The position numbers and the translations under genes are program-made. A stretch of DNA of 64,000 nucleotides, from NCBI GenBank assembly GCA_017647405.1, contig JAGCKR010000064.1, positions 9,988-73,987 on the forward strand, in the 5' to 3' direction. Source of the DNA: Alphaproteobacteria bacterium. Its GTDB lineage: Bacteria > Pseudomonadota > Alphaproteobacteria > CAAHEQ01 > UBA3637. A model generated the notes under the pieces. It searched no databases. It was not told the DNA's origin and worked only from the letters and a program-made list of their open reading frames with translations. Shown in pieces: positions 9,772 to 60,163 of this stretch. Within the stretch, counting starts at the first letter, position 1. The number at the start of each line of letters is the position of its first letter.

Positions 9772-12546
9772 ATGACGTTTTTAAAAAAAGCATATTTGCG
9801 CGCTTCTGATATTCCAGGTTTTCATTTTGGGGAACTTGTTTGTTTAATGCTTCTTTCCTTTTTTATGGGAATGGCTCTGTCGGGATATGATGCGGCTTCT
9901 GTTCGTCTTTATTTTGAACATGTGCCTTTGCCGGTTATGGGATATGATTTTATTTATATTGCCTTTCTCTGGTTTTTTATTGGGTATCAAAGAAGTATTT
10001 TAACAAGGCAAAAAGGATATGGTGCTATCAAAATTTTAAGTGCCGTTGTGTTTTTAAATACGCTTGTTTTGATTGGAATGGAAACATTGAATCAAAATCT
10101 TTTTGCCCATGTGTTATTTGTCAGTAAGTACCTAGTTTTTTCTTTTTTTACAATGGCGCTTTTTTTAATTGTTTCGAGGTTTTTGCCATTCAGACGTGAA
10201 AGTTTAAAACGACTTTTTATTATGGGTGCTTTATTTTTGGGATTTATGTTTGGTGGATTTATCCCGTTGATTTTTAAATGGGGCGCGTACAGCGTTTTAT
10301 ATGTTTCATTTTTTTTGTTGCTCGGATGTTATTTTAGCTTATTTATTCTTTCAAAAATAGTTTCTGTTCCTAAGGAGCTTTTTGTTACTAAAACAGGCGC
10401 CGCCAAAAATCTTTCGGAACTTAAATTAGTTCGAACGGTTTTATTGGGTTCCTTTTTTGTTTTTGCTGTTAAATGTTTATCTGATTTTCTTTTTTACCAA
10501 TCAGTAGCCAAAGAATTTGAACTTATTGAAACATGGCAATATTTACTCAGTTGGTGGGGTTTATTAGGATTTTTTGGTATTTTATGTGTTGTTATTTTAT
10601 ATCGCACTCGTTATTTTTATATGATTACGGGGGGGATAGTATTATTTTTGATAGGTGCTTTTTGCATTTCTCTGGGCAGTTTATATCAGTTTGTTTATTT
10701 AACAATTATTGGAATGATTTTAAGTTCATTAGCCCTGTTTCTTTATTTTGAAGATTTTATATTGGCATTACTTCGGTTATTGAATCAGGGGATTGGGCAA
10801 AATATTAATAGAAAAAGATGGATGTTAATTGAGCCGGCCGGTTTTTTGGCGGGGGCGCTTTTAAGTGTTCATTTTGCAAATCAGGCATGGATTTTGTTTT
10901 ATCTAACAGCCGGATTGCTTGTTTTGTTTTTTTTATCACTTAAGTTTTACTCTTCTTTATTGGTTTCATTATTGTCATTAAGAGTATGGCGCGGTGGTCC
11001 GTTGTTGTTATTGGATGGTCCTGTTTTGGATTACATTCAAAAAAATATTGTTTCAGAAAATAAAAATGATGCCATTTATTTTTTAAGAATTTTGGAAGTT
11101 TCCAATAGATGGATTTATACAGTTTGGCTTTTAAAATCACTTAAAAATAAAAATGAAAAAGTGCGTCTGTATGTTTTGGAAAAAATGTCTGCGCTATATA
11201 ATTTATCGCGTTATGAAAAAACAATTGAACTTATTTTTTTAAGAGACGCCTCTTTAAAAGTCAGATGTCGAGCTTTAAGTCTTTTAATCCAAATTGCATA
11301 TGAAAATAAAGGGTTAAATGGAGTTAATGCGTATTTGCCATATTTGGATAATAAAAAATTAAAAGTAGGTGCAATGTGTGGTTTTTTAAAAACAGGTGGA
11401 GCACCGGCTTTATTGGTGGCTGATGGATTGCAAGAACTTGTTAACTCCAAAAAGATTAAAGATAATTTATTAGCTCTTGCAATTATTGATTGGGCCCCAA
11501 GTGTTGGGTTGATGCGACAATTAACCAGATTGATGAAAAGTACAACGCCGATTGTTGCTTCAAAATCTTTATTGGTTGCGGCTAAGATTGATCATCCGGA
11601 ATGTTTGCCTCTTATTTTGAATTCTTTGGATGATATGGCTTTAAGAGAAAATGCTCTTGTTGCGCTTAAAAGTTATGGTGTAAAAGCATTGCCGATGATT
11701 GAGCGTGCTTTAAACAATCCGGAAACACCGGCAATTCGTTTAAAAACATTAATTTTGTTTTTGAGTATGCTTCCAAGTGGGGAAGGTAAACAAGTTTTAT
11801 TGCGTTCTCTTCAAATTGGAAATCAAAAATTAAGAAAAACAATTATTCAAGGGATGATTGATAGCGGTATTTTTTGGACTCATCATGATAAATATGATTT
11901 GCTATTTAATGGGATTCAAAAAGATGTTAATCGGATTTTATGGTTGACTGAATTAATGTTAAAATATAAGCAAGTTTCATTTCCGCAAACAAGTGAAGTA
12001 TTTTCATTTTTAATCAGAGCAATTCAAGAAGACCTTAAAGAAACAAGAGAAACGATTTTATATCAACTGTTATTATTAAAAGATAACCAGCTTTATATTA
12101 AAGCTGTAAAATTATTGCTTTCTAAAAGAAAAGATGCCTATGATTTGGCAATGAGTTCATTACAGGATATGTTGCCAAGAAAATTATTTCGGTTGGTTAA
12201 AATTGCGTTGGTTGATACAACGAAAACGGAAAAATCAGTTATCCAATCAGATATCACAATTGAAAGTGCAACAAAAGATGTTTTGCTTTTATTGAACGAA
12301 CCGCCGTTTATGCTTCCTGATTGGATAAAAGCAACGGCGCTTTATGTTTTAAGAATGCTTGATTGTCCTTTGGCCTTAGAAACAGTTAAAAAATATTTAA
12401 AATCAAAAAATCCACTTGTTTTAGAAGCAGCAATTTGGGCATTTTGCAAATTAGAAAAAGATGAAGAAAAACGGCACCAAACATTGATTGGATTGCCAAC
12501 AAGTCAGCTTCTTTTACAATCATTGGATACGATTTTGGAAAGTTAG
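9772..12546 (+). CDS. 12-TM transporter-like domain fused to a C-terminal HEAT/ARM-repeat domain
   Basis: About 12 hydrophobic helices within aa 1-400. The remaining ~500 aa contain repeated HEAT-like units (NEKVRLYVLEKM, DASLKVRCRALSLL, NPETPAIRLKTL, NPLVLEAAIWAF). Confidence 0.6.
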   Translation: MTFLKKAYLRASDIPGFHFGELVCLMLLSFFMGMALSGYDAASVRLYFEHVPLPVMGYDFIYIAFLWFFIGYQRSILTRQKGYGAIKILSAVVFLNTLVLIGMETLNQNLFAHVLFVSKYLVFSFFTMALFLIVSRFLPFRRESLKRLFIMGALFLGFMFGGFIPLIFKWGAYSVLYVSFFLLLGCYFSLFILSKIVSVPKELFVTKTGAAKNLSELKLVRTVLLGSFFVFAVKCLSDFLFYQSVAKEFELIETWQYLLSWWGLLGFFGILCVVILYRTRYFYMITGGIVLFLIGAFCISLGSLYQFVYLTIIGMILSSLALFLYFEDFILALLRLLNQGIGQNINRKRWMLIEPAGFLAGALLSVHFANQAWILFYLTAGLLVLFFLSLKFYSSLLVSLLSLRVWRGGPLLLLDGPVLDYIQKNIVSENKNDAIYFLRILEVSNRWIYTVWLLKSLKNKNEKVRLYVLEKMSALYNLSRYEKTIELIFLRDASLKVRCRALSLLIQIAYENKGLNGVNAYLPYLDNKKLKVGAMCGFLKTGGAPALLVADGLQELVNSKKIKDNLLALAIIDWAPSVGLMRQLTRLMKSTTPIVASKSLLVAAKIDHPECLPLILNSLDDMALRENALVALKSYGVKALPMIERALNNPETPAIRLKTLILFLSMLPSGEGKQVLLRSLQIGNQKLRKTIIQGMIDSGIFWTHHDKYDLLFNGIQKDVNRILWLTELMLKYKQVSFPQTSEVFSFLIRAIQEDLKETRETILYQLLLLKDNQLYIKAVKLLLSKRKDAYDLAMSSLQDMLPRKLFRLVKIALVDTTKTEKSVIQSDITIESATKDVLLLLNEPPFMLPDWIKATALYVLRMLDCPLALETVKKYLKSKNPLVLEAAIWAFCKLEKDEEKRHQTLIGLPTSQLLLQSLDTILES

Positions 12547-31799: not shown

Positions 31800-33380
31800 A
31801 TGAAAAAATCACAGTTGTTCTTATATAGCGCTTTAAGTTTTTGTTTTGTTTGGATGAATGGGGGGCAAGGATTTGCAACCGAGGCAAAAAAAGCGCCGGA
31901 TCAAAAATCAACAGAAGCAAAAAAAACAATCGAAGTGCCGGTATATACGAAAGATGATGTGGTTTTTCAAAGCCCTTTTATGCTGAAAAAATCAGATAAA
32001 ACACCGGTAAATGGAATTTTACAAAGAACATATCCCAGTGGAAAAATTGAAGCAAAGGCTTTCTTTTTTAATGGATTACCACATGGGGAAAGTGTCACTT
32101 ATTATGAAAATGGTCAAACAAAAACCATTGAAAAATATAATCAGGGGCGGTTGCATGGAAAATCAGTTTCCTATTATGAAAACGGTAAACTTTTAAATGA
32201 ATCTTATTTTAACATGGGATTGCCGGAAGGTTTATCAAAAGTTTATTACCAAAGCGGGTCTGTTCAATATGCAACAATGTATAAAAATGGTAAACGTAAT
32301 GGTGAAGATAAGGCTTATTTTGATGGAGATAAGTTGCAACGTGTTCGGGTTTATACAGATGGTTATTTAGATGGTGAAGTGAAAGAATATTATGAAAACG
32401 GTAAATTAAAAGGAGAGGGGCTTTTCAAAAAAGAGGGGCCCGAAGGGATTGTTAAAACATATTATGAAAATGGCAAGTTACGTACTGAAGAAGGGTATAA
32501 AGCCGGTAAAAAAGATGGTTTTTCAAAATCTTATTATGATTTTGGTCAGTTGATGCAAGAAGAAGAATATAAAGAGGATATGTTGGCCGGTGTTTCTAAA
32601 ACATATTATGAAGACGGAAGTATCGAAAAAGAAGTTTTTTATAAAGATGGTAAACAAAACGGAACGGCTAAAGTTTTTTATAACACTGGTCAATTAAAGT
32701 TAGAAGGCAATTATAAAGATGATAAAATTGAGGGAAAACTGACAACCTATTATTTGGATGGCAATGTTCAATCCAGTGTTGAAATGAAAAATGGTGTTTT
32801 GGATGGTAAATTAGTTGAATTTTATGAAAATGGTCAGGTTGCTCTTGAAAAAAATTATAAAAACGGATCAGAAGAAGGCCCTGTTGTAGCTTATTATCCA
32901 ACCGGAAAAGTGAAGATGACAACGCTTTTTAAAGCGGGGAAAAAAGATGGTGAATTCGCAATTTATTATGAAGATGGAACATTAAGTACCAGAACAATGT
33001 TTAAAAATGATTTGCCTCATGGTGAGTTTAAACAATATTATCCGAGTGGCACAATCAATGTTGAAGGTATTTATGAAAATGGAAAATTAAACGGCAAGCA
33101 AACAATTTATTACAATAATGGTGTTATTCAAAGCGTTGATTTTTATAAAAATGATAAGCTTGATGGGGAAAGCAAAACCTTTTATGAATCCGGAGAATTA
33201 AGAAGTATTTCTTCATTTAAAGATGGCAAAAAAGACGGAAAAGCTAAGATTTATGATGAAGAAGGAAATCTGACTTTAGATATGGAATTTAAAATGGATG
33301 AGTTAGTTAGCGCTAAAACAAAAAAGATTTTAGAAGAAGAGGCGAAAAAAAATAAACAAGCTTCAACCCCCTCAGAATAA
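31800..33380 (+). CDS. Secreted MORN-variant (YwqK-like) repeat protein
   Basis: Signal peptide, then about 19-20 tandem ~23-aa units of the form YYENGKLK.E..YK.GK.DG. Confidence 0.8.
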   Translation: MKKSQLFLYSALSFCFVWMNGGQGFATEAKKAPDQKSTEAKKTIEVPVYTKDDVVFQSPFMLKKSDKTPVNGILQRTYPSGKIEAKAFFFNGLPHGESVTYYENGQTKTIEKYNQGRLHGKSVSYYENGKLLNESYFNMGLPEGLSKVYYQSGSVQYATMYKNGKRNGEDKAYFDGDKLQRVRVYTDGYLDGEVKEYYENGKLKGEGLFKKEGPEGIVKTYYENGKLRTEEGYKAGKKDGFSKSYYDFGQLMQEEEYKEDMLAGVSKTYYEDGSIEKEVFYKDGKQNGTAKVFYNTGQLKLEGNYKDDKIEGKLTTYYLDGNVQSSVEMKNGVLDGKLVEFYENGQVALEKNYKNGSEEGPVVAYYPTGKVKMTTLFKAGKKDGEFAIYYEDGTLSTRTMFKNDLPHGEFKQYYPSGTINVEGIYENGKLNGKQTIYYNNGVIQSVDFYKNDKLDGESKTFYESGELRSISSFKDGKKDGKAKIYDEEGNLTLDMEFKMDELVSAKTKKILEEEAKKNKQASTPSE

Positions 33381-38515: not shown

Positions 38516-38643
38516 TATCAGCTCCTTTTGGTTAAATTGATTTTTTTTAACGTAACGTTTTTTTTTTGAAAAGTCAAGCATGGAATTTGCTTGATAACCT
38601 GTTTGATATTTGGTATAAAAAAAGAAAAATAAAGGAGAGACGC

Positions 38644-40023
38644 ATGAAATATTTTTTTTCAAAGACATTGTTGTTGGCTTGTTGTTTTTTTTCTGTTTTG
38701 AGTTATGCTAAGGAGTATCCGTCAATTGATTGCGAAAAATTATTGGAAGATCTTGAAACAGGAAAAATTCAGGATACTTCGAATTATGATAAGTGCGGTT
38801 TTGCAAATGAAGAATTTGTTTGGTCAAAATGGGCGGGTTATGTTTCTGAAAAAAAGATGAAACGTGCTATTCATGAAATTTGTGTTCGTTATCCGGATCA
38901 TGAATATCATGACCTTTATTGTGAAAAAGCTATTTTGCTTGGACATCCGGCTGCCTATATTTTAAAAGGGCGAAAGTTGATTGAAAAAGATGATTTTCAA
39001 GGTGGATATGAATATTTAACAAAGGCTTTGGCAACGAATGCTCTAACGCAAGAGGAAGAAGCGCAAGTATTGGAAATTTTGGGTTTTTATTACATGCGTA
39101 CGAATAATTCAAAAGCATTTTCCTATTTAGATGCGGCCGCAAAAAAAGGATCTGCTGTTGCACATAATATTTTGGCATATAATTTCTTTTTGAAAAAAGA
39201 CGAGAGTCTGGGAAATGAAGAGGCTGCTTTGGATCATTTCTGGCAAGCTATTTTAATTGGATGCAAAACAGCAGAAGAAAATTATGGTTTAATGCAATTA
39301 GCAAAACAAGGGAAAATAACATCTCAAAAAGCTGAAGCAGAAATGCGCAAGAATATAAAATCCTGCACCCCGATATCTGCTCAAAAACGGTTTGCAGATA
39401 ATAAACTTTATAATTGCCGATGTGCTTTTTCATTAGAACAAGAAAAAAGATTAAATCAAAAACCATATCTGCTATTAAAAACAGAAGCTAAAATGGCGGT
39501 TTTAAAAGATACGCAAACAGGAGATGAAATCAGCGTGACGGAACAGCGGAATTTGCCAAATGGTGCAAATGTATTAGAAGTAAGAAAAACAGCTGTGATT
39601 TTAAGATATCCGGGAGATGTGCGTGAAATTTTGAATCTTTATAAAAAAGATGAATGTGTTGATTTTTGTAAAACCAATCATATCACAAATAATCTTTCAG
39701 CAGAAGAAATGCGTTTAAAAATTGAAGGGGCAAAAGAAACGGTTCGAATTAAGCCTTATCATATTACATACACGCCCAAAGAATGCGAATTTATTTCTTA
39801 TTATGCCGAAAAACTTTTACCGGTTGGAGCTGACTATAAAGGCAAAGAAGAATGCAAAAATTTGGTGCTGGAAGAAGATGCTATTTTGCAAAATATGGAA
39901 ATGCCGGAACAAAAAATTGTTCAGCCGGTTATGAAGAAAAAAGAAGAGACGGTTGATGTTCTTTCCAGTCAGGAAAAGAAAAAATTACTTCAATCAGTTG
40001 GTGGCGCTTTAAATTTTGAATAA
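38644..40023 (+). CDS. Secreted Sel1-like repeat protein with an extra C-terminal domain
   Basis: Signal peptide MKYFFSKTLLLACCFFSVLSYA and Sel1-like units (AAKKGSAVAHNILAYNFF). ATG 38644 has an AAGGAG RBS. Confidence 0.6.
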   Translation: MKYFFSKTLLLACCFFSVLSYAKEYPSIDCEKLLEDLETGKIQDTSNYDKCGFANEEFVWSKWAGYVSEKKMKRAIHEICVRYPDHEYHDLYCEKAILLGHPAAYILKGRKLIEKDDFQGGYEYLTKALATNALTQEEEAQVLEILGFYYMRTNNSKAFSYLDAAAKKGSAVAHNILAYNFFLKKDESLGNEEAALDHFWQAILIGCKTAEENYGLMQLAKQGKITSQKAEAEMRKNIKSCTPISAQKRFADNKLYNCRCAFSLEQEKRLNQKPYLLLKTEAKMAVLKDTQTGDEISVTEQRNLPNGANVLEVRKTAVILRYPGDVREILNLYKKDECVDFCKTNHITNNLSAEEMRLKIEGAKETVRIKPYHITYTPKECEFISYYAEKLLPVGADYKGKEECKNLVLEEDAILQNMEMPEQKIVQPVMKKKEETVDVLSSQEKKKLLQSVGGALNFE

Positions 40024-52079: not shown

Positions 52080-54081
<2,002 letters not shown>

Positions 54082-55167
54082 TTATTGCTCTTGTGCCATT
54101 GCGCCGGAAACGACTTCGGCAATATCTGTTGTAATTTTTGATTGTCTGGTTCTTCTGTAAATTTTTTGCATATCATGAAGCATATCGCTGGCATTTTTTG
54201 TTGCATTATCCATTGCCATTAAACGGGCAGCATTGTCAGCAACTTCTGTTTCAATTAAAACGCGGTTCACATATGCGGTCATATATTGAGGTAAAATGCG
54301 TTCTAAAATCCCTAAATCTCCCCCTTCATAATCATACATTTCGGGTTCTCTGGTCGGTTGTTTTAGCAAGGTGGCATCCAAAGCGCCAAACGGGGAAAAT
54401 AAATCCCCTTTACCAAAGGCCTTTAAAAAGCTTGTTTGTTTAAGCGCAATCTTTTTTTGACCTAAAACGTCTCTGGAAATATAATCGAGATCATTGGTGT
54501 CAATTAAAAATTGCCAAGGGTTTTCTTCTGAAAACATTTTACCAGGGATAAGCTGTTCAATGGTTGGACGTTGTGAAACAACGGATTTAAATTGATTGTA
54601 TATGAAAAGACAAACGTCAAATTTATCTTGATAAAAGGCCTTTGTCAGATCACTTGAAAGACGTTCGGCATCCAAATAGCTTTCATTTGAATTAAAAACT
54701 TTTTTCTTAACGGTAATAATTCTGATGTTTGGGTAAAAACGTTTTAAAATTTCAGCACCCTTTGTTCCAAAACAAAGAAGTGTTATCTCTTTATTTTCTT
54801 TTTGAAGATATTTAACAACTTCTTGCGTTTTTTGAACAACCTGAACATTTGAAGCCCCACTTAATCCATCATCTGATGTGATAACAACAAGAGTATATTT
54901 TAAATCTTTTCCATTTCCTTTTAAAAGGCGTGGTAATGGTAAAAGAGTGGGATCATTTTGCCAAATTAAATCTTCTTGGCGTTTGGTCGCACTTCTGATT
55001 AACCGACGGATAACGCGGTTCATTTCCGTCATATAAGGTGTTGTTTTCATAAAAGTAGTTTGCAGTTTTTTCAGTCTTGAAATGGCAACCACTTTCATTG
55101 AAGAGGTGACCTGATAAGTTGATTTAATCGTTTTTATCCGGTCGGATATCTTTTTTAATGAGCTCAT
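54082..55167 (-). CDS. atpG: ATP synthase F1 gamma subunit (with a ~50-aa internal insertion)
   Basis: N-terminal [21 protein letters not shown] and C-terminal [12 protein letters not shown]...[16 protein letters not shown] helices. 361 aa. Confidence 0.9.
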
Positions 55168-56960
55168 TCGTCATCGGTTCCCATTGTTGCTGATAAATCT
55201 TTAAGTACACTGCTTAATTTTTCTTTTGTTTCTTCTGTTAGGTCATTGGTTGATAGGATACTTTCAATGATTTCTTTATGCTCTTTTTCAACCGTTTTGA
55301 GAAGTTTTTCTTCAAAAGCAGAGATATTATCTAATGGAATTTTATCCAAATACCCATTTACCCCTGCAAAAATGGAAATGACTTCTTCGGCCATGGAATA
55401 AGGATGATATTGTTTTTGTTTCATGATTTCCGTTAGACGAGAACCCCTGTTAAGTAAAGCTTGTGTCGCTGGATCCAAATCCGATGCAAATTGAGAAAAG
55501 TTCATTACTTCGCGATATTGGGCTAAATCAAGTTTTAAAGAGCCGGCAACTTTTTTCATGGCTTTGCTTTGAGCAGCTGAACCTACACGGCTGACGGATA
55601 ACCCAACGTTAATGGCTGGACGAACCCCTTGTAAAAAGAGATTTGTTTCCAAAAAGATTTGTCCGTCAGTGATGGAAATAACGTTTGTTGGAATATAGGC
55701 TGAAACGTCGCCTTCTTGCGTTTCAATCACTGGTAATGCTGTGAGCGAGCCACCACCATATTCTTTACTGAGCTGGGCGGCGCGTTCCAATAAACGGGAG
55801 TGTAAGTAAAAAACGTCACCTGGATAAGCTTCGCGCCCTGTCGGACGTTTAAGTAATAAACTCATTTCGCGATAGGCAACGGCATGTTTGGAAAGGTCGT
55901 CATAAAAGACGATGGCATTCATGGAGTTATCTCTGAAATATTCCCCAATAGTACAACCAGCATAAGGAGCTAGATATTGCATGGCAGCGCTATCAGAAGC
56001 TGTTGCTGAAACAATAACTGTATATTCCATGGCTCCGTTTTCTTCTAAAATGCGCATAATATCGCGAACAGTTGATTGTTTTTGGCCGATAGCGACATAG
56101 ATACAGAATAATTTTTCAGAATCTGGTAAAACAGCATTTTTTTCTTTTTGGCTTAAAATAGTATCTAAAATAATAGCTGTTTTCCCTGTTTGACGATCGC
56201 CAATAATTAATTCGCGTTGCCCTCTGCCGATTGGAACAAGGGAGTCAATCCCTTTAATCCCAGTTTGAATCGGTTTATTAACGGAGCTTCTGGCAATAAT
56301 TCCCGGAGCGGGAGCCATCACTGGTTTGTGCGGTAAATCATTAAATCCTTCTTTCCCATCAATAGGGGCTCCCAGAGGGTTGATAACCCGACCTAATAGT
56401 TCCATGCCGACAGGAACAGTGTTCATCTGATTGGTTCTAGCAACGAAGGCACCTTCTTTAATGTTTTGTGCATCGTTAAAGATAACAATATCTACTACAT
56501 CCGGATTTAAGTTTAAGGCCATACCAGTTTGACCAGATTCAAATTCAACGCGTTCACCAGAGGCGATGGATTTTAATCCTTCAACTCTGGCAACCCCATC
56601 GGAAACGGATAGAACTTTACCAATTTCTTTGATTTCTTTTTTTTCTTCAAAGTCTGAAACGGTATCAGAAAAAACTTCGGCAATTTTTGTAACATCAACG
56701 GCTCGGGCGACACGTTTTTCGATTTCTTGTTGAAAAGAGGAAAGTTGACCCTTAACAGATGCATCGATAAGTAGGGAGTCAACATTCAATTTAAGGCCGC
56801 CAAGTAAAGATTCGTTTACTTTTACTTGCAAAATAAAATTATCCGTTTTTAAAATGTCACTTAATCTTGTTCTTAAAGTTGCAAGTTGTTTTTCAGATAA
56901 GCTGATAGCTGATTCAACTTCAACGAATTTTGTTTTATCTAAAGTGTTTGTCATAACCAT
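55164..56960 (-). CDS. atpA: ATP synthase F1 alpha subunit fused N-terminally to a delta (OSCP) C-terminal domain
   Basis: [10 protein letters not shown]-loop and a full alpha core from about aa 95. Residues ~12-85 resemble the delta C-terminal domain ([22 protein letters not shown]). A TAA stop lies immediately 5' of the ATG. Confidence 0.9.
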
Positions 56961-57043
56961 TTAATCCTTTGAAAAAAAATAATGCTTTCTTTTAACATAA
57001 TTATCTGTTTCTTGCAAGAGAAGATAAGTCTTTTTTATAAAAA

Positions 57044-57076
57044 TAAAAAAAAGCACACTTATTGAAAAAGTGTGCT
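57044..57076 (-). terminator. Rho-independent terminator after 57095..57409
   Basis: On the minus strand, AGCACACTT-tttcaat-AAGTGTGCT followed by T8. Confidence 0.8.
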
Positions 57077-57094
57077 TTCATAAAAAGAGTTTGA

Positions 57095-57409
57095 TTATTT
57101 GCTAATATTTTCTTTGATTTCGTTATCGATTTTCATCATGTATCCTTCCTGATATGGGTCTTTACCATTGATCACGTTTTGAGCTTCTTCGAGTCCATAT
57201 TTGTTAGCTTTTGCCCCCAATCTGGAAGAAGCATCAAAAAATAAATGTAGTTGTCTGGAAACAATATTTTTATATTGTGTTAATTGATGAGTTGTTTTGC
57301 CTGTTGTTTCAAAAGGATCCATTCCAAGGAAAAACCATGTTAGGATAAAAAATTCAAGAATGCGTATTCCAATCCAGATGAGAAATTTTTTTAATTTTTC
57401 AAAGTCCAT
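57095..57409 (-). CDS. Hypothetical small membrane protein
   Basis: 104-aa ORF with one TM (FLIWIGIRILEFFILTWFFLG). It has its own terminator. Confidence 0.4.
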   Translation of the reverse strand: MDFEKLKKFLIWIGIRILEFFILTWFFLGMDPFETTGKTTHQLTQYKNIVSRQLHLFFDASSRLGAKANKYGLEEAQNVINGKDPYQEGYMMKIDNEIKENISK

Positions 57410-58803: not shown

Positions 58804-59487
58804 TTAATGATAAGCGCGCATTAACCCAACCAATAATCCTTGAACTTCAACACGAGCAATATCAAGAGTTCTTGGTTCATAAGCAGGATTTTCTGGAATA
58901 AGGGTGACTTGTCTGCCTTTAACTTGAATACGTTTTAATGTAGCTTCAAAACCATCAACAAGCGCCACAACAATAGATCCATTTGGAGCATAGTCAGCGC
59001 GTTTGATAATAACGGTATCGCCATCCATAATCCCCGCATTGATCATTGAGTCCCCTTCAATTTTAAGGGCATAATGTTCACCGGAGCCCATCATATGGGA
59101 TGGAACGGTAACCATATCGTTGGGATTGCGAATAGCCTCAATGGGAACGCCGGCGGCAATTTTGCCAAATAATGGAATTTCAATTGAGTTATCGTTTACA
59201 ACATTGTAAACAGCTTGAGAAAATCCTTTTGTTTTATTTTTGCCCATCACTTTAACGGGGGCAACATATTTTTCAGCCGGCATGGCAATTACTTCGATGG
59301 CTCTAGCCCTATTAGGTGCTCTTTTAATGAACTTTCTTTGCTCAAGGGCGTTGATAATCCGATGAATGCCGGATTTTGAATGAAGATTAAGTTTTTCTTT
59401 CATTTCATCAAATGAAGGGCAAACACCTTTTTCTTTAATGGTGTCATTAATAAAAGTTAAGAGTAAATATTGTTTTTGTGTTAGCAT
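58804..59487 (-). CDS. lexA: SOS repressor LexA
   Basis: N-terminal winged HTH (LTQKQYLLLTFINDTIKEKGVCPSFDEM). S24 peptidase domain with GDSM (Ser) and ATLKR (Lys). GGAGGG RBS before ATG 59487. Confidence 0.9.
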   Translation of the reverse strand: MLTQKQYLLLTFINDTIKEKGVCPSFDEMKEKLNLHSKSGIHRIINALEQRKFIKRAPNRARAIEVIAMPAEKYVAPVKVMGKNKTKGFSQAVYNVVNDNSIEIPLFGKIAAGVPIEAIRNPNDMVTVPSHMMGSGEHYALKIEGDSMINAGIMDGDTVIIKRADYAPNGSIVVALVDGFEATLKRIQVKGRQVTLIPENPAYEPRTLDIARVEVQGLLVGLMRAYH

Positions 59488-59510
59488 ATCATCCCTCCGA
59501 TTTAAGAAAT

Positions 59511-59525
59511 ATTCTACTTTTGTTC
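59511..59525. promoter_or_regulatory. Alphaproteobacterial-type LexA box candidate (GAAC-N7-GAAT on the lexA strand)
   Basis: The plus strand reads ATTC-tactttt-GTTC. It lies immediately downstream of the lexA -10 element. Confidence 0.5.
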
Positions 59526-59527
59526 TT

Positions 59528-59556
59528 ATGCTAAAATAAAAAAAATGCTTTGTCAA
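59528..59556 (-). promoter_or_regulatory. Putative lexA promoter
   Basis: On the minus strand, TTGACA (59556-59551), 17-nt spacer, TAGCAT (59533-59528). Confidence 0.5.
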
Positions 59557-59668: not shown

Positions 59669-60163
59669 ATGAAAAAGATGATTGAAGAAGAAATTGAAAG
59701 AGATAATATTCAGGTTTTGATGGCTCATCGGATTCAAAGTGCAATTGATGCGGGGGATTTGATTGAGCTTCAAGATTGTGCCGCTCTTTTGGATGTGAAA
59801 CGCATCTTTTTTGTTGAAATGGATGAGGAAACGGATCGAAAACTTGCCAAGCCGATTCTTGTTTATGCCGCAGAACATGGATCTGTTGATGTGGTTAAAT
59901 TTTTGCTTGAGATGGGGTGCGATATTAATGCTCAGGATACGTTTGGGAATACGGCGCTTTTATGTGCGGTTGAAAATAACAGATATGAATTGATGAAATT
60001 TTTGTTGCGTCAACCGGGCATTCACGTTGAGCTTGCCAATTTTTATGGCGAGAATATTTTTTCAATTGCGGCTCTTAATAATGATGAACAGATCATGTCG
60101 CATTTAAAAACGTTAAAGTTTCAAAAATCAGATATTGCCGAAAGTGTTTTCCAAGTTAATTAA
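59669..60163 (+). CDS. Ankyrin-repeat protein
   Basis: PILVYAAEHGSVDVVKFLLEMGCDINAQDTFGNTALLCAVENNRYELMKFLL gives at least 2-3 ANK units. Confidence 0.75.
   Translation: MKKMIEEEIERDNIQVLMAHRIQSAIDAGDLIELQDCAALLDVKRIFFVEMDEETDRKLAKPILVYAAEHGSVDVVKFLLEMGCDINAQDTFGNTALLCAVENNRYELMKFLLRQPGIHVELANFYGENIFSIAALNNDEQIMSHLKTLKFQKSDIAESVFQVN

What the first reader, a model, noticed from the sequence alone, without database searches (positions are those of the whole stretch)
56691..56960. atpA is fused in frame to only the C-terminal domain of subunit delta, and no delta N-terminal domain is encoded at the locus
**Seen in the sequence**
- The 598-aa ORF at 55164..56960 (minus strand) is about 85-90 aa longer than ordinary alpha subunits.
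- Residues ~12-85 are [71 protein letters not shown].
- By eye these align with the C-terminal domain of F1 delta/OSCP. E. coli delta, from memory, ends [65 protein letters not shown].
- The normal alpha N-terminus and beta-barrel ([19 protein letters not shown]) continue in the same frame.
- A TAA stop (56961-56963) lies immediately 5' of the ATG.
- Only ~130 nt of non-coding DNA precede it, and these include the terminator of the upstream gene. The ~100-aa delta N-terminal helical bundle therefore cannot be encoded here.

**Established knowledge**
- The delta N-terminal domain clamps the N-terminal helix of an alpha subunit.
- The delta C-terminal domain binds the b-dimer peripheral stalk.

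**Inference**
- A covalent tether to alpha would make the N-terminal domain dispensable.
- It would also place a stalk-binding module on all three alpha copies instead of one.
- b-delta fusions are known, for example in mycobacteria. I am not aware of a described delta(C-terminal domain)-alpha fusion.
Basis: partly seen in the sequence, partly recalled or inferred. Interest (0 to 1): 0.72.

Follow-up and report, generated by a model that had tools for sequence, protein, structure and literature searches.

The report
Natural delta-CTD–alpha fused ATP synthase subunit
The ATP synthase alpha subunit of this uncultured gut alphaproteobacterium has the stalk-docking half of subunit delta fused to its front, a design that gave engineered enzymes up to three stator stalks, and it has been noted in one other bacterial group but never studied in nature.

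Summary
ORF 55164..56960 (-) encodes 598 aa. Residues 7-84 are the C-terminal domain of F1 delta/OSCP (Pfam PF00213 positions 99-171 of 172, E 2e-16). They continue in frame into a complete alpha subunit (TIGR00962, 762 bits). No delta N-terminal domain is encoded at the locus.

It is not an assembly artefact:
- 16 species-level gut Alphaproteobacteria MAGs carry the same fusion.
- 116 of the 120 best database clusters (59-100% identity) also carry it.
- The delta part is under purifying selection (dN/dS 0.06-0.12).
- The junction length is fixed at 55 residues in 48 of 50 sequences.

The architecture is already described. Ueno et al. (Nat Commun 2025, PDB 9jc1) engineered exactly this fusion in Bacillus PS3. 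They obtained up to three peripheral stalks and three a-subunits, with H+/ATP of 5.8. They also noted natural fusions in Acidaminococcus fermentans. 9jc1 is the best sequence match in the PDB for the first 161 residues. It is also the only structure that matches my model over its full length.

The case here is alphaproteobacterial and arose independently of the Firmicutes-type fusions. A multi-stalk function is inferred, not shown. Whether a free atpH exists elsewhere in the genome could not be tested.

Verdict: real, a new member of a recently recognised kind, moderately interesting.

The parts
55164..56960 (-). Whole fused gene: delta C-terminal domain joined to F1 alpha, 598 aa
   Evidence: The ORF is listed. 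Pfam finds OSCP, ATP-synt_ab_N, ATP-synt_ab and ATP-synt_ab_C in it. TIGR00962 scores 762 bits. A protein identical from Met3 onward, P0164, is named 'F0F1 ATP synthase subunit alpha' by NCBI.
56709..56942 (-). Delta/OSCP C-terminal domain, aa 7-84, the module that normally docks the b-dimer stalk
   Evidence: PF00213 profile positions 99-171 of 172 match at E 1.9e-16. hhalign against full-length deltas gives 99.3% probability. The AF2 model shows strand 11-17, helix 23-37, strands 42-48, 56-60 and 63-66, and helix 69-84, which is the four-strand, two-helix delta-C fold. dN/dS is 0.06-0.12.
56697..56699 (-). Codon for Val88 (GTT), at the position of the ancestral alpha start Met
   Evidence: This alignment column holds M in some lineages (for example SSMDV, QSMDA) and V, I or L in others. 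TIGR00962 model position 3 aligns to aa 89. GTT is not a start codon, so no free alpha can be initiated here.
56631..56699 (-). Retained alpha N-terminal helix and its link to the beta-barrel, aa 88-110
   Evidence: The AF2 model has a helix at aa 90-102. The region aligns without gaps to the same part of the engineered fusion chain 9jc1_I. The spacing from D66 to D121 is 55 residues in 48 of 50 homologues, the same as in 9jc1.
56637..56644 (-). A8 run inside the linker (codons E-K-K), a hot spot for frameshifts in related assemblies
   Evidence: The sequence is. Relatives L002 and L003 have A9, and L004 has A7 where its in-frame relatives have A6; in each case the gene is split. The run is A8, A6, A5 or absent in the 16 reference MAGs, all of which are in frame.
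56430..56630 (-). Alpha N-terminal beta-barrel domain, aa 111-177
   Evidence: PF02874 matches aa 111-177.
55590..56261 (-). Alpha nucleotide-binding domain, aa 234-457, including the alphaproteobacterial/mitochondrial-type insertion [17 protein letters not shown]
   Evidence: PF00006 matches at E 3e-80. The insertion is present here and in P0163 but absent from the Firmicutes-type fusion P0162.
55197..55571 (-). Alpha C-terminal helical domain, aa 464-588
   Evidence: PF00306 matches at E 7e-48.
56965..56970 (-). Shine-Dalgarno-like AAAGGA, followed by an in-frame TAA at 56961-56963
   Evidence: Read directly from the sequence. The upstream stop is confirmed.
57039..57079 (-). Hairpin plus T-run that looks like an intrinsic terminator, ending the upstream small ORF
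   Evidence: The scan found a 12-pair stem, a 7-nt loop and a T-rich tail. One such site was found against 0.3 expected by chance.
54082..55167 (-). atpG (gamma), 361 aa; its start overlaps the fusion's stop codon
   Evidence: The ORF is. The best PDB hit is Paracoccus gamma, 5dn6_G, at E 2.6e-44.
52609..54069 (-). atpD (beta), 486 aa
   Evidence: The ORF translation has the typical beta sequence. The homologous operon genes in L021 carry the ATP-synt_ab domains.
52080..52616 (-). atpC (epsilon), 178 aa
   Evidence: PDB epsilon chains match aa 27-136.

Best explanation
**Shown**
- The gene encodes a genuine, conserved fusion: the C-terminal domain of F1 subunit delta/OSCP joined to the N-terminus of a complete alphaproteobacterial F1 alpha subunit.
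- It heads an atpA-G-D-C operon.
- Relative to the ancestral atpH-atpA pair, the delta N-terminal domain, the atpH stop codon and the alpha start codon are all missing. The alpha Met1 position is now Val88. The junction length is essentially unchanged.
- No in-frame start codon lies between the delta domain and the alpha barrel, so every alpha copy is made with its own delta C-terminal domain.

**Inferred**
- In ordinary F-ATP synthases a single delta N-terminal domain sits on the pseudo-threefold axis of the alpha3beta3 crown, and this limits the enzyme to one peripheral stalk.
- Here that cap is absent, and each of the three alpha subunits carries, in cis, the module that binds the C-terminus of the b/b' dimer.
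- The enzyme can therefore anchor a stalk without free delta. It most likely binds more than one stalk, each bringing an a-subunit.
- That would raise the H+/ATP ratio and allow ATP synthesis at a low proton-motive force, which would suit life in an animal gut.

**How likely**
- I put about 0.97 on the fusion being real and functional as the stalk anchor.
- I put about 0.55 on more than one stalk per complex in vivo. That figure is the confidence given for this explanation.
For: **Identity of the two parts**
- PF00213 profile positions 99-171 of 172 match at E 2e-16, and the alpha domains are all present.
- TIGR00962 scores 762 bits, starting at aa 89.
- hhalign against full-length deltas gives 99.3% probability, restricted to the C-terminal domain.

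**Not an artefact**
- All 16 GTDB species-representative MAGs have an in-frame ORF of 598-606 aa.
- 116 of the 120 best clusters, at 59-100% identity, carry PF00213 together with the alpha domains.
- dN/dS of the delta part is 0.06-0.12, similar to the alpha part at 0.05-0.06.
- The junction spacing is 55 residues in 48 of 50 sequences.
- A more distant lineage (L021, 56% identity) has the same operon.

**No free alpha**
- There is no ATG, GTG or TTG in frame between the delta domain and Met146.

**Mechanistic precedent**
- The engineered Bacillus PS3 fusion of N-terminally deleted delta to alpha binds up to three b2 stalks and three a-subunits.
- Its H+/ATP is 5.8 and its equilibrium pmf is halved.
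- The interface between the delta C-terminal domain and b is the canonical one (PMC12229609).

**Similarity to that enzyme**
- 9jc1_I is the top PDB sequence hit for aa 1-161. It aligns without gaps across the junction at E 2.7e-17.
- The AF2 model (mean pLDDT 75) has its highest query-normalised TM-score, 0.82 over 579-581 columns, against 9jc1 chains I and K. Ordinary alphas reach at most 0.74 over about 500 columns.

**Natural precedent for more than one stalk**
- Chloroflexus aurantiacus F1Fo has two stalks and two a-subunits, linked to a shortened delta N-terminal domain (PMC12002316).
Against: - No Fo genes (a, b, b', c) are in the window or in any of the alphaproteobacterial loci. Stalk and a-subunit stoichiometry cannot be assessed.
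- The rest of the genome could not be searched, so a free full-length atpH elsewhere is not excluded.
- The engineered enzyme also showed single-stalk particles. Fusion alone does not prove several stalks in vivo.
- The alpha N-helix and linker region is the least conserved part, at 37% mean identity.
- Three lineages have assemblies with a frameshift in the linker. These are unexplained.
- The organism's energy metabolism is unknown. The window holds only housekeeping genes.
Confidence: 0.55

Rival explanations
1. The fusion is real but only replaces free delta. One b/b' stalk and one a-subunit assemble per complex, for example because b, b' and a are made in limiting amounts. The other two delta C-terminal domains stay unoccupied, and the H+/ATP ratio is ordinary.
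For: The engineered fused enzyme gave single-, double- and triple-stalk classes, and its average a and b stoichiometry was about 2, not 3. In Alphaproteobacteria the Fo genes lie in a separate operon, and none is in the window or loci. Their expression is therefore uncoupled from the fusion gene.
Against: In the engineered enzyme extra stalks assembled spontaneously once the N-terminal cap was removed and each alpha carried a C-terminal domain. Losing the N-terminal domain offers no obvious benefit if only one stalk is used. Yet the architecture is fixed across a large clade and arose independently in Firmicutes-type lineages.
Confidence: 0.3
2. A normal full-length delta (atpH) is encoded elsewhere in the genome and forms the canonical single stalk. 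The fused C-terminal domain is then an accessory or regulatory appendage, or a tolerated relic.
For: Only 64 kb of this genome and about 10-20 kb around the gene in relatives could be examined. Alphaproteobacterial atp genes are normally split between loci.
Against: In Alphaproteobacteria atpH normally sits directly upstream of atpA, which is exactly where the fused domain is. The junction column still holds the alpha Met in some lineages. No delta N-terminal domain was found in 305 kb of window plus loci. The fused domain is under strong purifying selection and keeps the family's core motif. Three fused C-terminal domains on the crown would probably clash with a delta N-terminal domain binding the same alpha N-helices; this last point is my inference.
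Confidence: 0.07
3. The linker is a slippery or phase-variable site. Frameshifting or transcriptional slippage at the A-run yields two products: a roughly 110-aa protein (delta C-terminal domain plus alpha N-helix) and an N-terminally truncated alpha. This would tune how many alpha copies carry a stalk anchor.
For: Related assemblies carry +1 frameshifts in the A-run. L002 and L003, from two different samples, have A9, and L004 has A7. L024 has a -1 frameshift at the same codon, and there the new TGA stop overlaps an in-frame GTG.
Against: All 16 reference MAGs and 116 of the 120 best clusters are in frame. The A-run is not conserved: it is A8, A6 or A5, and is absent in L010 and L016. Other short fragments are broken at unrelated positions (codons 133, 162, 203), as expected from errors in low-coverage contigs. 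My N-terminal query also favoured the retrieval of truncated ORFs.
Confidence: 0.05
4. Assembly or sequencing artefact, or a pseudogene: in reality a short atpH remnant and atpA are separate genes.
For: A few metagenomic contigs show split ORFs.
Against: The in-frame fusion recurs in independent assemblies from many hosts and studies. dN/dS is low across the junction. No start codon exists for a separate alpha.
Confidence: 0.02

Closest known systems
Engineered fusion of N-terminally deleted delta to alpha in Bacillus PS3 FoF1 (Ueno et al., Nat Commun 2025, PMC12229609; PDB 9jc1)
   Same: The architecture is the same: delta C-terminal domain (PS3 residues 105-178), short link, alpha N-terminus, with no delta N-terminal domain. 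The spacing between the C-terminal-domain motif and the alpha barrel is also the same, at 55 residues. It is the best PDB sequence hit for aa 1-161 (E 2.7e-17, no gaps) and the only structural match over the full length (TM 0.82).
   Different: That enzyme is man-made, in a Firmicute backbone (48-50% identity), with a GSGG linker, b2 homodimers and a truncated epsilon. The gene here is natural and alphaproteobacterial. It presumably pairs with b/b' heterodimers, and its function has not been tested.
Natural fusions of N-terminally deleted delta to alpha in Acidaminococcus fermentans (UniProt D2RLW6) and entries G4Q3K6 and A0A1I2C5T3, noted in the same paper
   Same: These are natural genes with the delta N-terminal domain missing and the C-terminal domain fused to alpha. 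The authors propose that they form multi-stalk enzymes. Firmicutes-type examples were also recovered here (P0162, P0047, P0155).
   Different: The lineage and origin differ. The Firmicutes-type fusion P0162 is 47% identical to the window protein. It lacks the alphaproteobacterial/mitochondrial alpha insertion and sits in an a-c-b-fusion-gamma-beta operon. The window gene heads an F1-only operon typical of Alphaproteobacteria. I did not have the D2RLW6 sequence itself for comparison.
[quoted passage not shown]
   Same: It is a natural F-type enzyme in which a change to the delta N-terminal domain lifts the one-stalk limit. Each delta C-terminal domain docks one b-dimer.
   Different: Delta is a free subunit there. 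It has a shortened four-helix N-terminal domain that dimerises, giving two stalks. There is no fusion to alpha.
Mycobacterial b-delta fusion (atpFH)
   Same: It is a covalent fusion involving delta that stabilises the connection between the peripheral stalk and F1. NF009961 'subunit B/delta' matches the window's delta part weakly, at E 1e-6.
   Different: Delta is fused to b, not to alpha. The N-terminal domain is kept, and there is one copy and one stalk per complex.
N-ATPase (alternate F1Fo), whose subunit b carries a delta-like C-terminal end and whose operon has no delta gene
   Same: A delta C-terminal-like module is attached to another subunit, and free delta is absent. TIGR03321 positions 178-246 of 246 match aa 12-81 at E 7e-4.
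   Different: The module is on b, not on alpha. The window's alpha fails the N-ATPase alpha model (TIGR03324 scores 564 bits against a cut-off of 750).
V/A-type ATPases with two or three EG peripheral stalks
   Same: Several stalks attach separately around the catalytic head, leaving its top unoccupied (discussion in PMC12002316).
   Different: The stalk proteins are unrelated, and there is a single a-subunit.

Membership tests
F1 ATP synthase subunit alpha (TIGR00962 / PF02874 + PF00006 + PF00306) | A full-length match to the equivalog model above its curated cut-off, with all three alpha domains present | tested here: met
   TIGR00962 scores 762.4 bits against a cut-off of 484.45, aligning aa 89-592 to model positions 3-500 of 503. 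The three Pfam domains are all above their cut-offs.
F1 subunit delta / OSCP (PF00213, TIGR01145) | C-terminal domain: four-stranded sheet plus two helices, which binds b | tested here: met
   PF00213 positions 99-171 of 172 match at 61 bits against a cut-off of 22.3. hhalign gives 99.3% probability. The AF2 model has the strand-helix-three strands-helix order at aa 11-84.
F1 subunit delta / OSCP (PF00213, TIGR01145) | N-terminal helical-bundle domain, which binds the alpha N-termini on the crown axis | tested here: not met
   Only 6-11 residues precede the C-terminal domain, and a TAA lies directly upstream. The full-length equivalog TIGR01145 scores 55.9 bits, below its cut-off of 57.5. An HMM of the N-terminal domain finds nothing below E 0.1 in 305 kb. 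The upstream 104-aa ORF is unrelated (hhalign 0.04%).
Fusion of N-terminally deleted delta to alpha (engineered 9jc1; natural Acidaminococcus type) | Delta C-terminal domain fused in frame to the alpha N-terminus, with the alpha N-helix retained and the delta N-terminal domain absent from the polypeptide | tested here: met
Fusion of N-terminally deleted delta to alpha (engineered 9jc1; natural Acidaminococcus type) | No separate full-length delta gene in the genome | not testable with these tools
   None was found in the window or in 24 related loci.
Fusion of N-terminally deleted delta to alpha (engineered 9jc1; natural Acidaminococcus type) | More than one peripheral stalk and a-subunit per complex, with a raised H+/ATP ratio | not testable with these tools
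   This needs biochemistry or cryo-EM. It has been shown only for the engineered PS3 enzyme.
N-ATPase (alternate F1Fo) | Alpha and beta match the alt_F1F0 exception models; the operon order is beta-epsilon-(I)-a-c-b-alpha-gamma | tested here: not met
   TIGR03324 scores 564.5 bits against a cut-off of 750.5. The operon here is alpha-gamma-beta-epsilon.

The most novel reading that the evidence does not exclude
A whole clade of uncultured animal-gut Alphaproteobacteria, the class from which mitochondria arose, runs a native F-ATP synthase with two or three b/b' stalks and as many a-subunits. This design evolved independently of the Firmicutes examples by reading through from atpH into atpA and deleting the delta N-terminal domain. 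It would give an H+/ATP ratio two to three times that set by the c-ring alone. The clade-specific 64-aa gamma insertion, the extended epsilon and the conserved small membrane ORF upstream might be co-adaptations to a rotor caged by several stalks.
Probability: 0.4. Interest if true: 0.8.

Novelty: new member of a known kind. Interest (0 to 1): 0.55.

Why it matters
- **Bioenergetics.** The H+/ATP ratio is a basic parameter long thought to be set only by c-ring size. Work in 2025 showed it can also be changed by multiplying stalks and a-subunits, once by engineering and once in Chloroflexus.
- **A second natural origin.** This locus shows that the exact engineered design also exists in a large clade of gut Alphaproteobacteria: 116 of the 120 best 90%-identity database clusters (the listing is capped at 120) and 16 species-level MAGs. 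It arose independently of the Firmicutes cases, which points to adaptation, plausibly to low-pmf anaerobic niches.
- **Material for experiments.** The sequences could be expressed heterologously for cryo-EM and pmf-threshold measurements.
- **Annotation.** Pipelines label the protein simply 'subunit alpha', or label split fragments 'subunit delta'. They would then score atpH as missing, so metabolic reconstructions could wrongly call the ATP synthase incomplete.

Tried and rejected
1. **Hidden delta N-terminal domain.** I searched an HMM of 12 delta N-terminal domains, and a full-length delta HMM, against all six-frame segments of the window plus the loci fetched by then (305 kb). Only the fused ORFs matched, and only through the C-terminal domain.
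2. **The 104-aa ORF upstream (57095..57409) as a split-off N-terminal domain.** It has no Pfam hit. hhalign against delta gives 0.04% probability. It has an N-terminal hydrophobic helix. Rejected.
3. **Internal start for a free alpha.** There is no in-frame ATG, GTG or TTG between aa 3 and Met146. A Met at the old alpha start survives only in some lineages.
4. **Programmed frameshift at the A-run.** The run is not conserved, and all reference genomes are in frame. I kept this only as a low-probability rival.
5. **Fo genes.** phmmer with a, b and c queries, plus motif scans, found none in the window or in the alphaproteobacterial loci. Stalk genes could therefore not be examined.
6. **Exact look-up of the 598-aa product.** It found nothing, because databases start the protein at Met3 (P0164).
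7. **Metabolic context.** NCBIfam annotation of the ten largest ORFs gave only housekeeping genes (YidC, MnmE, MnmG, PheS, PheT, MiaB, a glycosyltransferase). This gave no information on the organism's energy metabolism.
8. **Organisms behind UniProt G4Q3K6 and A0A1I2C5T3.** They are not named in the paper or its supplements.
Full report
**1. The observation**

- The codon directly 5' of the ATG is TAA at 56961-56963. An AAAGGA ribosome-binding motif lies at 56965-56970.
- The upstream ORF's stop codon ends at 57095, which leaves 134 nt between the genes. Within that gap a 12-bp hairpin plus T-run at 57079-57049 looks like an intrinsic terminator.
- Pfam places PF00213 (OSCP/delta) profile positions 99-171 of 172 on aa 7-79. 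E is 6e-15 in the whole protein and 1.9e-16 for aa 1-100 alone, at 61 bits against a cut-off of 22.3. The three alpha domains follow.
- NCBIfam TIGR00962 (atpA) aligns aa 89-592 to model positions 3-500 at 762 bits. The alpha subunit is therefore complete, including its N-terminal helix.
- The full-length delta equivalog TIGR01145 scores 55.9 bits against a cut-off of 57.5, as expected for half a delta.
- A profile-profile comparison of the N-terminal region with seven full-length deltas gives 99.3% probability and E 1e-20, confined to delta columns 108-182 of 192.

**2. It is real and conserved**

*In genomes.* A scan of one genome per GTDB species returned 16 MAGs. All are labelled 'Alphaproteobacteria bacterium' and come from animal guts, with record names pointing to sheep rectum, roe-deer colon, water-buffalo rectum, rabbit and other hosts. 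In each, tblastn matches query residues of about 1-161 in one in-frame segment.
- The ORFs I reconstructed are 598-606 aa.
- An in-frame stop codon lies shortly upstream of each start: at most 7 codons in most loci and 20-31 codons in four rabbit-gut MAGs.

*In protein databases.* A search with the full-length protein lists 120 clusters at 59-100% identity.
- 116 of them carry PF00213 together with the three alpha domains, at 506-638 aa.
- One has 100% identity and is NCBI's 'MAG: F0F1 ATP synthase subunit alpha'.

*Across 50 aligned homologues.*
- Only 8-17 residues precede the delta domain.
- The delta core positions are invariant or nearly so: Q25, L29, N49, G54, G55, D66, S68, G71 and F76.
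- The distance from D66 to the barrel's D121 is 55 residues in 48 sequences and 54 in the other two.

*Selection.* Against three relatives of about 92% identity, dN/dS is 0.06-0.12 for the delta part and 0.05-0.06 for alpha. The delta domain is therefore maintained by selection.

*A deeper lineage.* L021 (56% identity) has the same order: YgjP-like gene, small ORF, fusion, gamma, beta, epsilon.

**3. How the fusion arose**

- The alignment column at Val88 still holds Met followed by Asp in some lineages (SSMDV, QSMDA, PSMDV). Alphaproteobacterial alphas start MDIRA.
- In Alphaproteobacteria atpH directly precedes atpA; this is my own knowledge.
- The simplest history is therefore loss of the atpH stop codon and the alpha start codon, plus deletion of the delta N-terminal domain, with no change at the junction.
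- In the window Val88 is GTT. No ATG, GTG or TTG lies in frame before Met146. A free alpha cannot be initiated, and all three alpha copies must carry the delta domain unless the protein is cleaved.

**4. Is a delta N-terminal domain hidden nearby?**

- HMMs of delta N-terminal domains and of whole deltas were searched with filters off against all six-frame segments of the window and the loci fetched by then (305 kb). They hit only the fused ORFs, through the C-terminal domain. Nothing else scored below E 0.1.
- The only candidate of the right size is the 104-aa ORF at 57095..57409, directly upstream on the same strand.
  - It has no Pfam hit and starts with a hydrophobic helix.
  - It shows 0.04% probability against delta by hhalign.
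- No Fo genes are present, as expected for the split atp operons of Alphaproteobacteria.
- The rest of the genome could not be searched.

**5. What it most likely does**

The literature search found that this architecture has been built and characterised. Ueno et al. (bioRxiv 2024; Nat Commun 2025, PMC12229609) made the following argument and test.
- *Reasoning:* the delta N-terminal domain sits on the pseudo-threefold axis of the crown and so limits the enzyme to one stalk.
- *Construct:* they deleted delta residues 2-104 and fused residues 105-178 to the alpha N-terminus in Bacillus PS3 FoF1.
- *Result:* the enzyme carried up to three b2 stalks, each with its own a-subunit and with canonical contacts between the delta C-terminal domain and b. 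H+/ATP was 5.8 and the equilibrium pmf was halved.

The deposited fusion chain, 9jc1_I, compares with the window protein as follows.
- It is the best PDB sequence hit to aa 1-161. It aligns aa 20-160 to its residues 13-153 without a gap, at E 2.7e-17.
- Its spacing from the C-terminal-domain motif to the barrel is also 55 residues.
- My AlphaFold2 model was built from 50 sequences and has mean pLDDT 75 and pTM 0.73. It shows the expected four-strand, two-helix delta-C fold at aa 11-84, followed by the alpha N-helix at aa 90-102.
- In a Foldseek search of the PDB, 9jc1 chains I and K give the highest query-normalised TM-score, 0.82 over 579-581 columns. Ordinary alphas cover about 480-510 columns at TM 0.74 or less.

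A natural two-stalk, two-a-subunit F-ATP synthase is also now known from Chloroflexus aurantiacus. There a shortened delta N-terminal domain dimerises (PMC12002316).

My best explanation is that each alpha carries a built-in stalk anchor and the axis cap is missing. The complex then needs no free delta and probably binds two or three b/b' stalks with their a-subunits. The fusion and its conservation are shown. The multi-stalk stoichiometry and the raised H+/ATP are inferred by analogy, and I give them about 0.55.

**6. Comparison with what is known, and novelty**

- Ueno et al. already reported natural fusions of this kind in Acidaminococcus fermentans (D2RLW6) and two further UniProt entries. 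They proposed that such enzymes have several stalks.
- I found no later paper that tests this, and none that mentions Alphaproteobacteria.
- The exhaustive representative search recovered Firmicutes-type fusions: P0047, P0051, P0155 (a Eubacterium sp. MAG) and P0162.
- P0162 sits in an a-c-b-fusion-gamma-beta operon.
- The window protein is 47% identical to P0162 but 58-62% identical to the mitochondrial alpha chains in the list.
- Its best gamma match is Paracoccus.
- It carries the insertion [17 protein letters not shown] in the nucleotide-binding domain, which P0162 lacks. That this insertion is typical of alphaproteobacterial and mitochondrial alphas is from my own knowledge.
- The fusion here therefore arose independently.
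- I class it as a new, alphaproteobacterial and clade-wide member of a recently recognised kind, not a new kind.

**7. Loose ends**

*Frameshifted relatives.* Some related contigs split the gene in the linker.
- L002 and L003, from two different samples, have A9 where the window and L005 have A8.
- L004 has A7 where L001 and L013 have A6.
- L024 has a -1 deletion at the same codon, without an A-run.
- All 16 reference MAGs are in frame, and the run is absent in L010 and L016.
- Other fragments are broken elsewhere.
- I therefore regard these as errors or strain-level mutations at a fragile site, but I could not settle it.

*Other unusual subunits.*
- Gamma (361 aa) has an insertion of about 64 aa where Paracoccus has residues 198-207.
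- Epsilon (178 aa) has extensions at both ends.
- The small membrane ORF upstream lies upstream on the same strand in most relatives that have enough flanking sequence (directly adjacent in most).
- Whether any of these is connected to the fusion is unknown.

**8. Verdict**

It documents a second, independent and widespread natural occurrence of the architecture that multiplies stalks in an engineered F-ATP synthase, and it offers concrete sequences for testing whether such enzymes exist in nature.

Noticed in passing
window 56637-56644 (A8 run on the minus strand); relatives L002:~4020, L003:~365, L004:~1715, L024:~1115: Three related lineages have assemblies with a frameshift within the same ~10 nt of the linker between the alpha N-helix and the barrel. 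L002 and L003 have A9 instead of A8, L004 has A7 instead of A6, and L024 has a -1 deletion with no A-run. Each splits the gene into a ~110-aa ORF (delta C-terminal domain plus alpha N-helix) and an N-terminally truncated alpha. In L024 the new TGA stop overlaps an in-frame GTG. All 16 reference MAGs are in frame.
   Followed up: partly
window 54082-55167 (-), atpG: Gamma is 361 aa, against about 290 in Paracoccus. An insertion of about 64 aa lies between aa 211 and 276, at the same topological site as the chloroplast and cyanobacterial regulatory loop. A further ~10 aa are inserted near aa 63-75. The distant fused lineage L021 also has a long gamma (353 aa), whereas the Firmicutes-type fused operon L023 has 296 aa.
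   Followed up: partly
window 52080-52616 (-), atpC: Epsilon is 178 aa. PDB epsilon chains align only to aa 27-136, which leaves an N-terminal extension of about 22 aa and a C-terminal tail of about 40 aa. The epsilon in L021 is 136 aa.
   Followed up: no
window 57095-57409 (-): A conserved 104-aa ORF with an N-terminal hydrophobic helix and no family match. It lies upstream of the fusion on the same strand in most relatives, and only 6 nt before it in L021. It is not related to delta. NCBI calls it a hypothetical protein (J6V53_06700).
   Followed up: partly
public proteins P0016, P0019, P0052 (delta N-terminal domain plus 2-3 tandem C-terminal domains); P0027, P0028, P0082 (two C-terminal domains, no N-terminal domain): Metagenomic delta proteins with two or three tandem C-terminal domains. 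This could be another natural way of offering several stalk-docking sites on one F1 head.
   Followed up: no
public proteins P0055, P0062, P0064/P0161, P0072, P0075: Firmicutes-like proteins in which a full-length delta (N-terminal and C-terminal domains) runs in frame into alpha. These may be intermediates on the way to the N-terminally deleted fusion, or gene-calling artefacts.
   Followed up: no
protein P0252: One fused homologue at 71% identity is labelled 'Lactobacillales bacterium' by NCBI. All others with a name are 'Alphaproteobacteria bacterium'. This is probably a mis-binned contig.
   Followed up: no
window 9772-12546 (+) and 38566-40023 (+): Two large ORFs (924 aa and 485 aa) have no NCBIfam match at E 1e-10 or better. 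The ORF at 31800-33380 has a domain resembling a LIC20035-family adhesin.
   Followed up: no
window 59669-60163 (+) and 58804-59556 (-): The counterparts of these two neighbouring ORFs in L002 are an ankyrin-repeat protein and LexA (Pfam). Ankyrin repeats may hint at a host- or protist-associated lifestyle. The window has 33.8% G+C.
   Followed up: no
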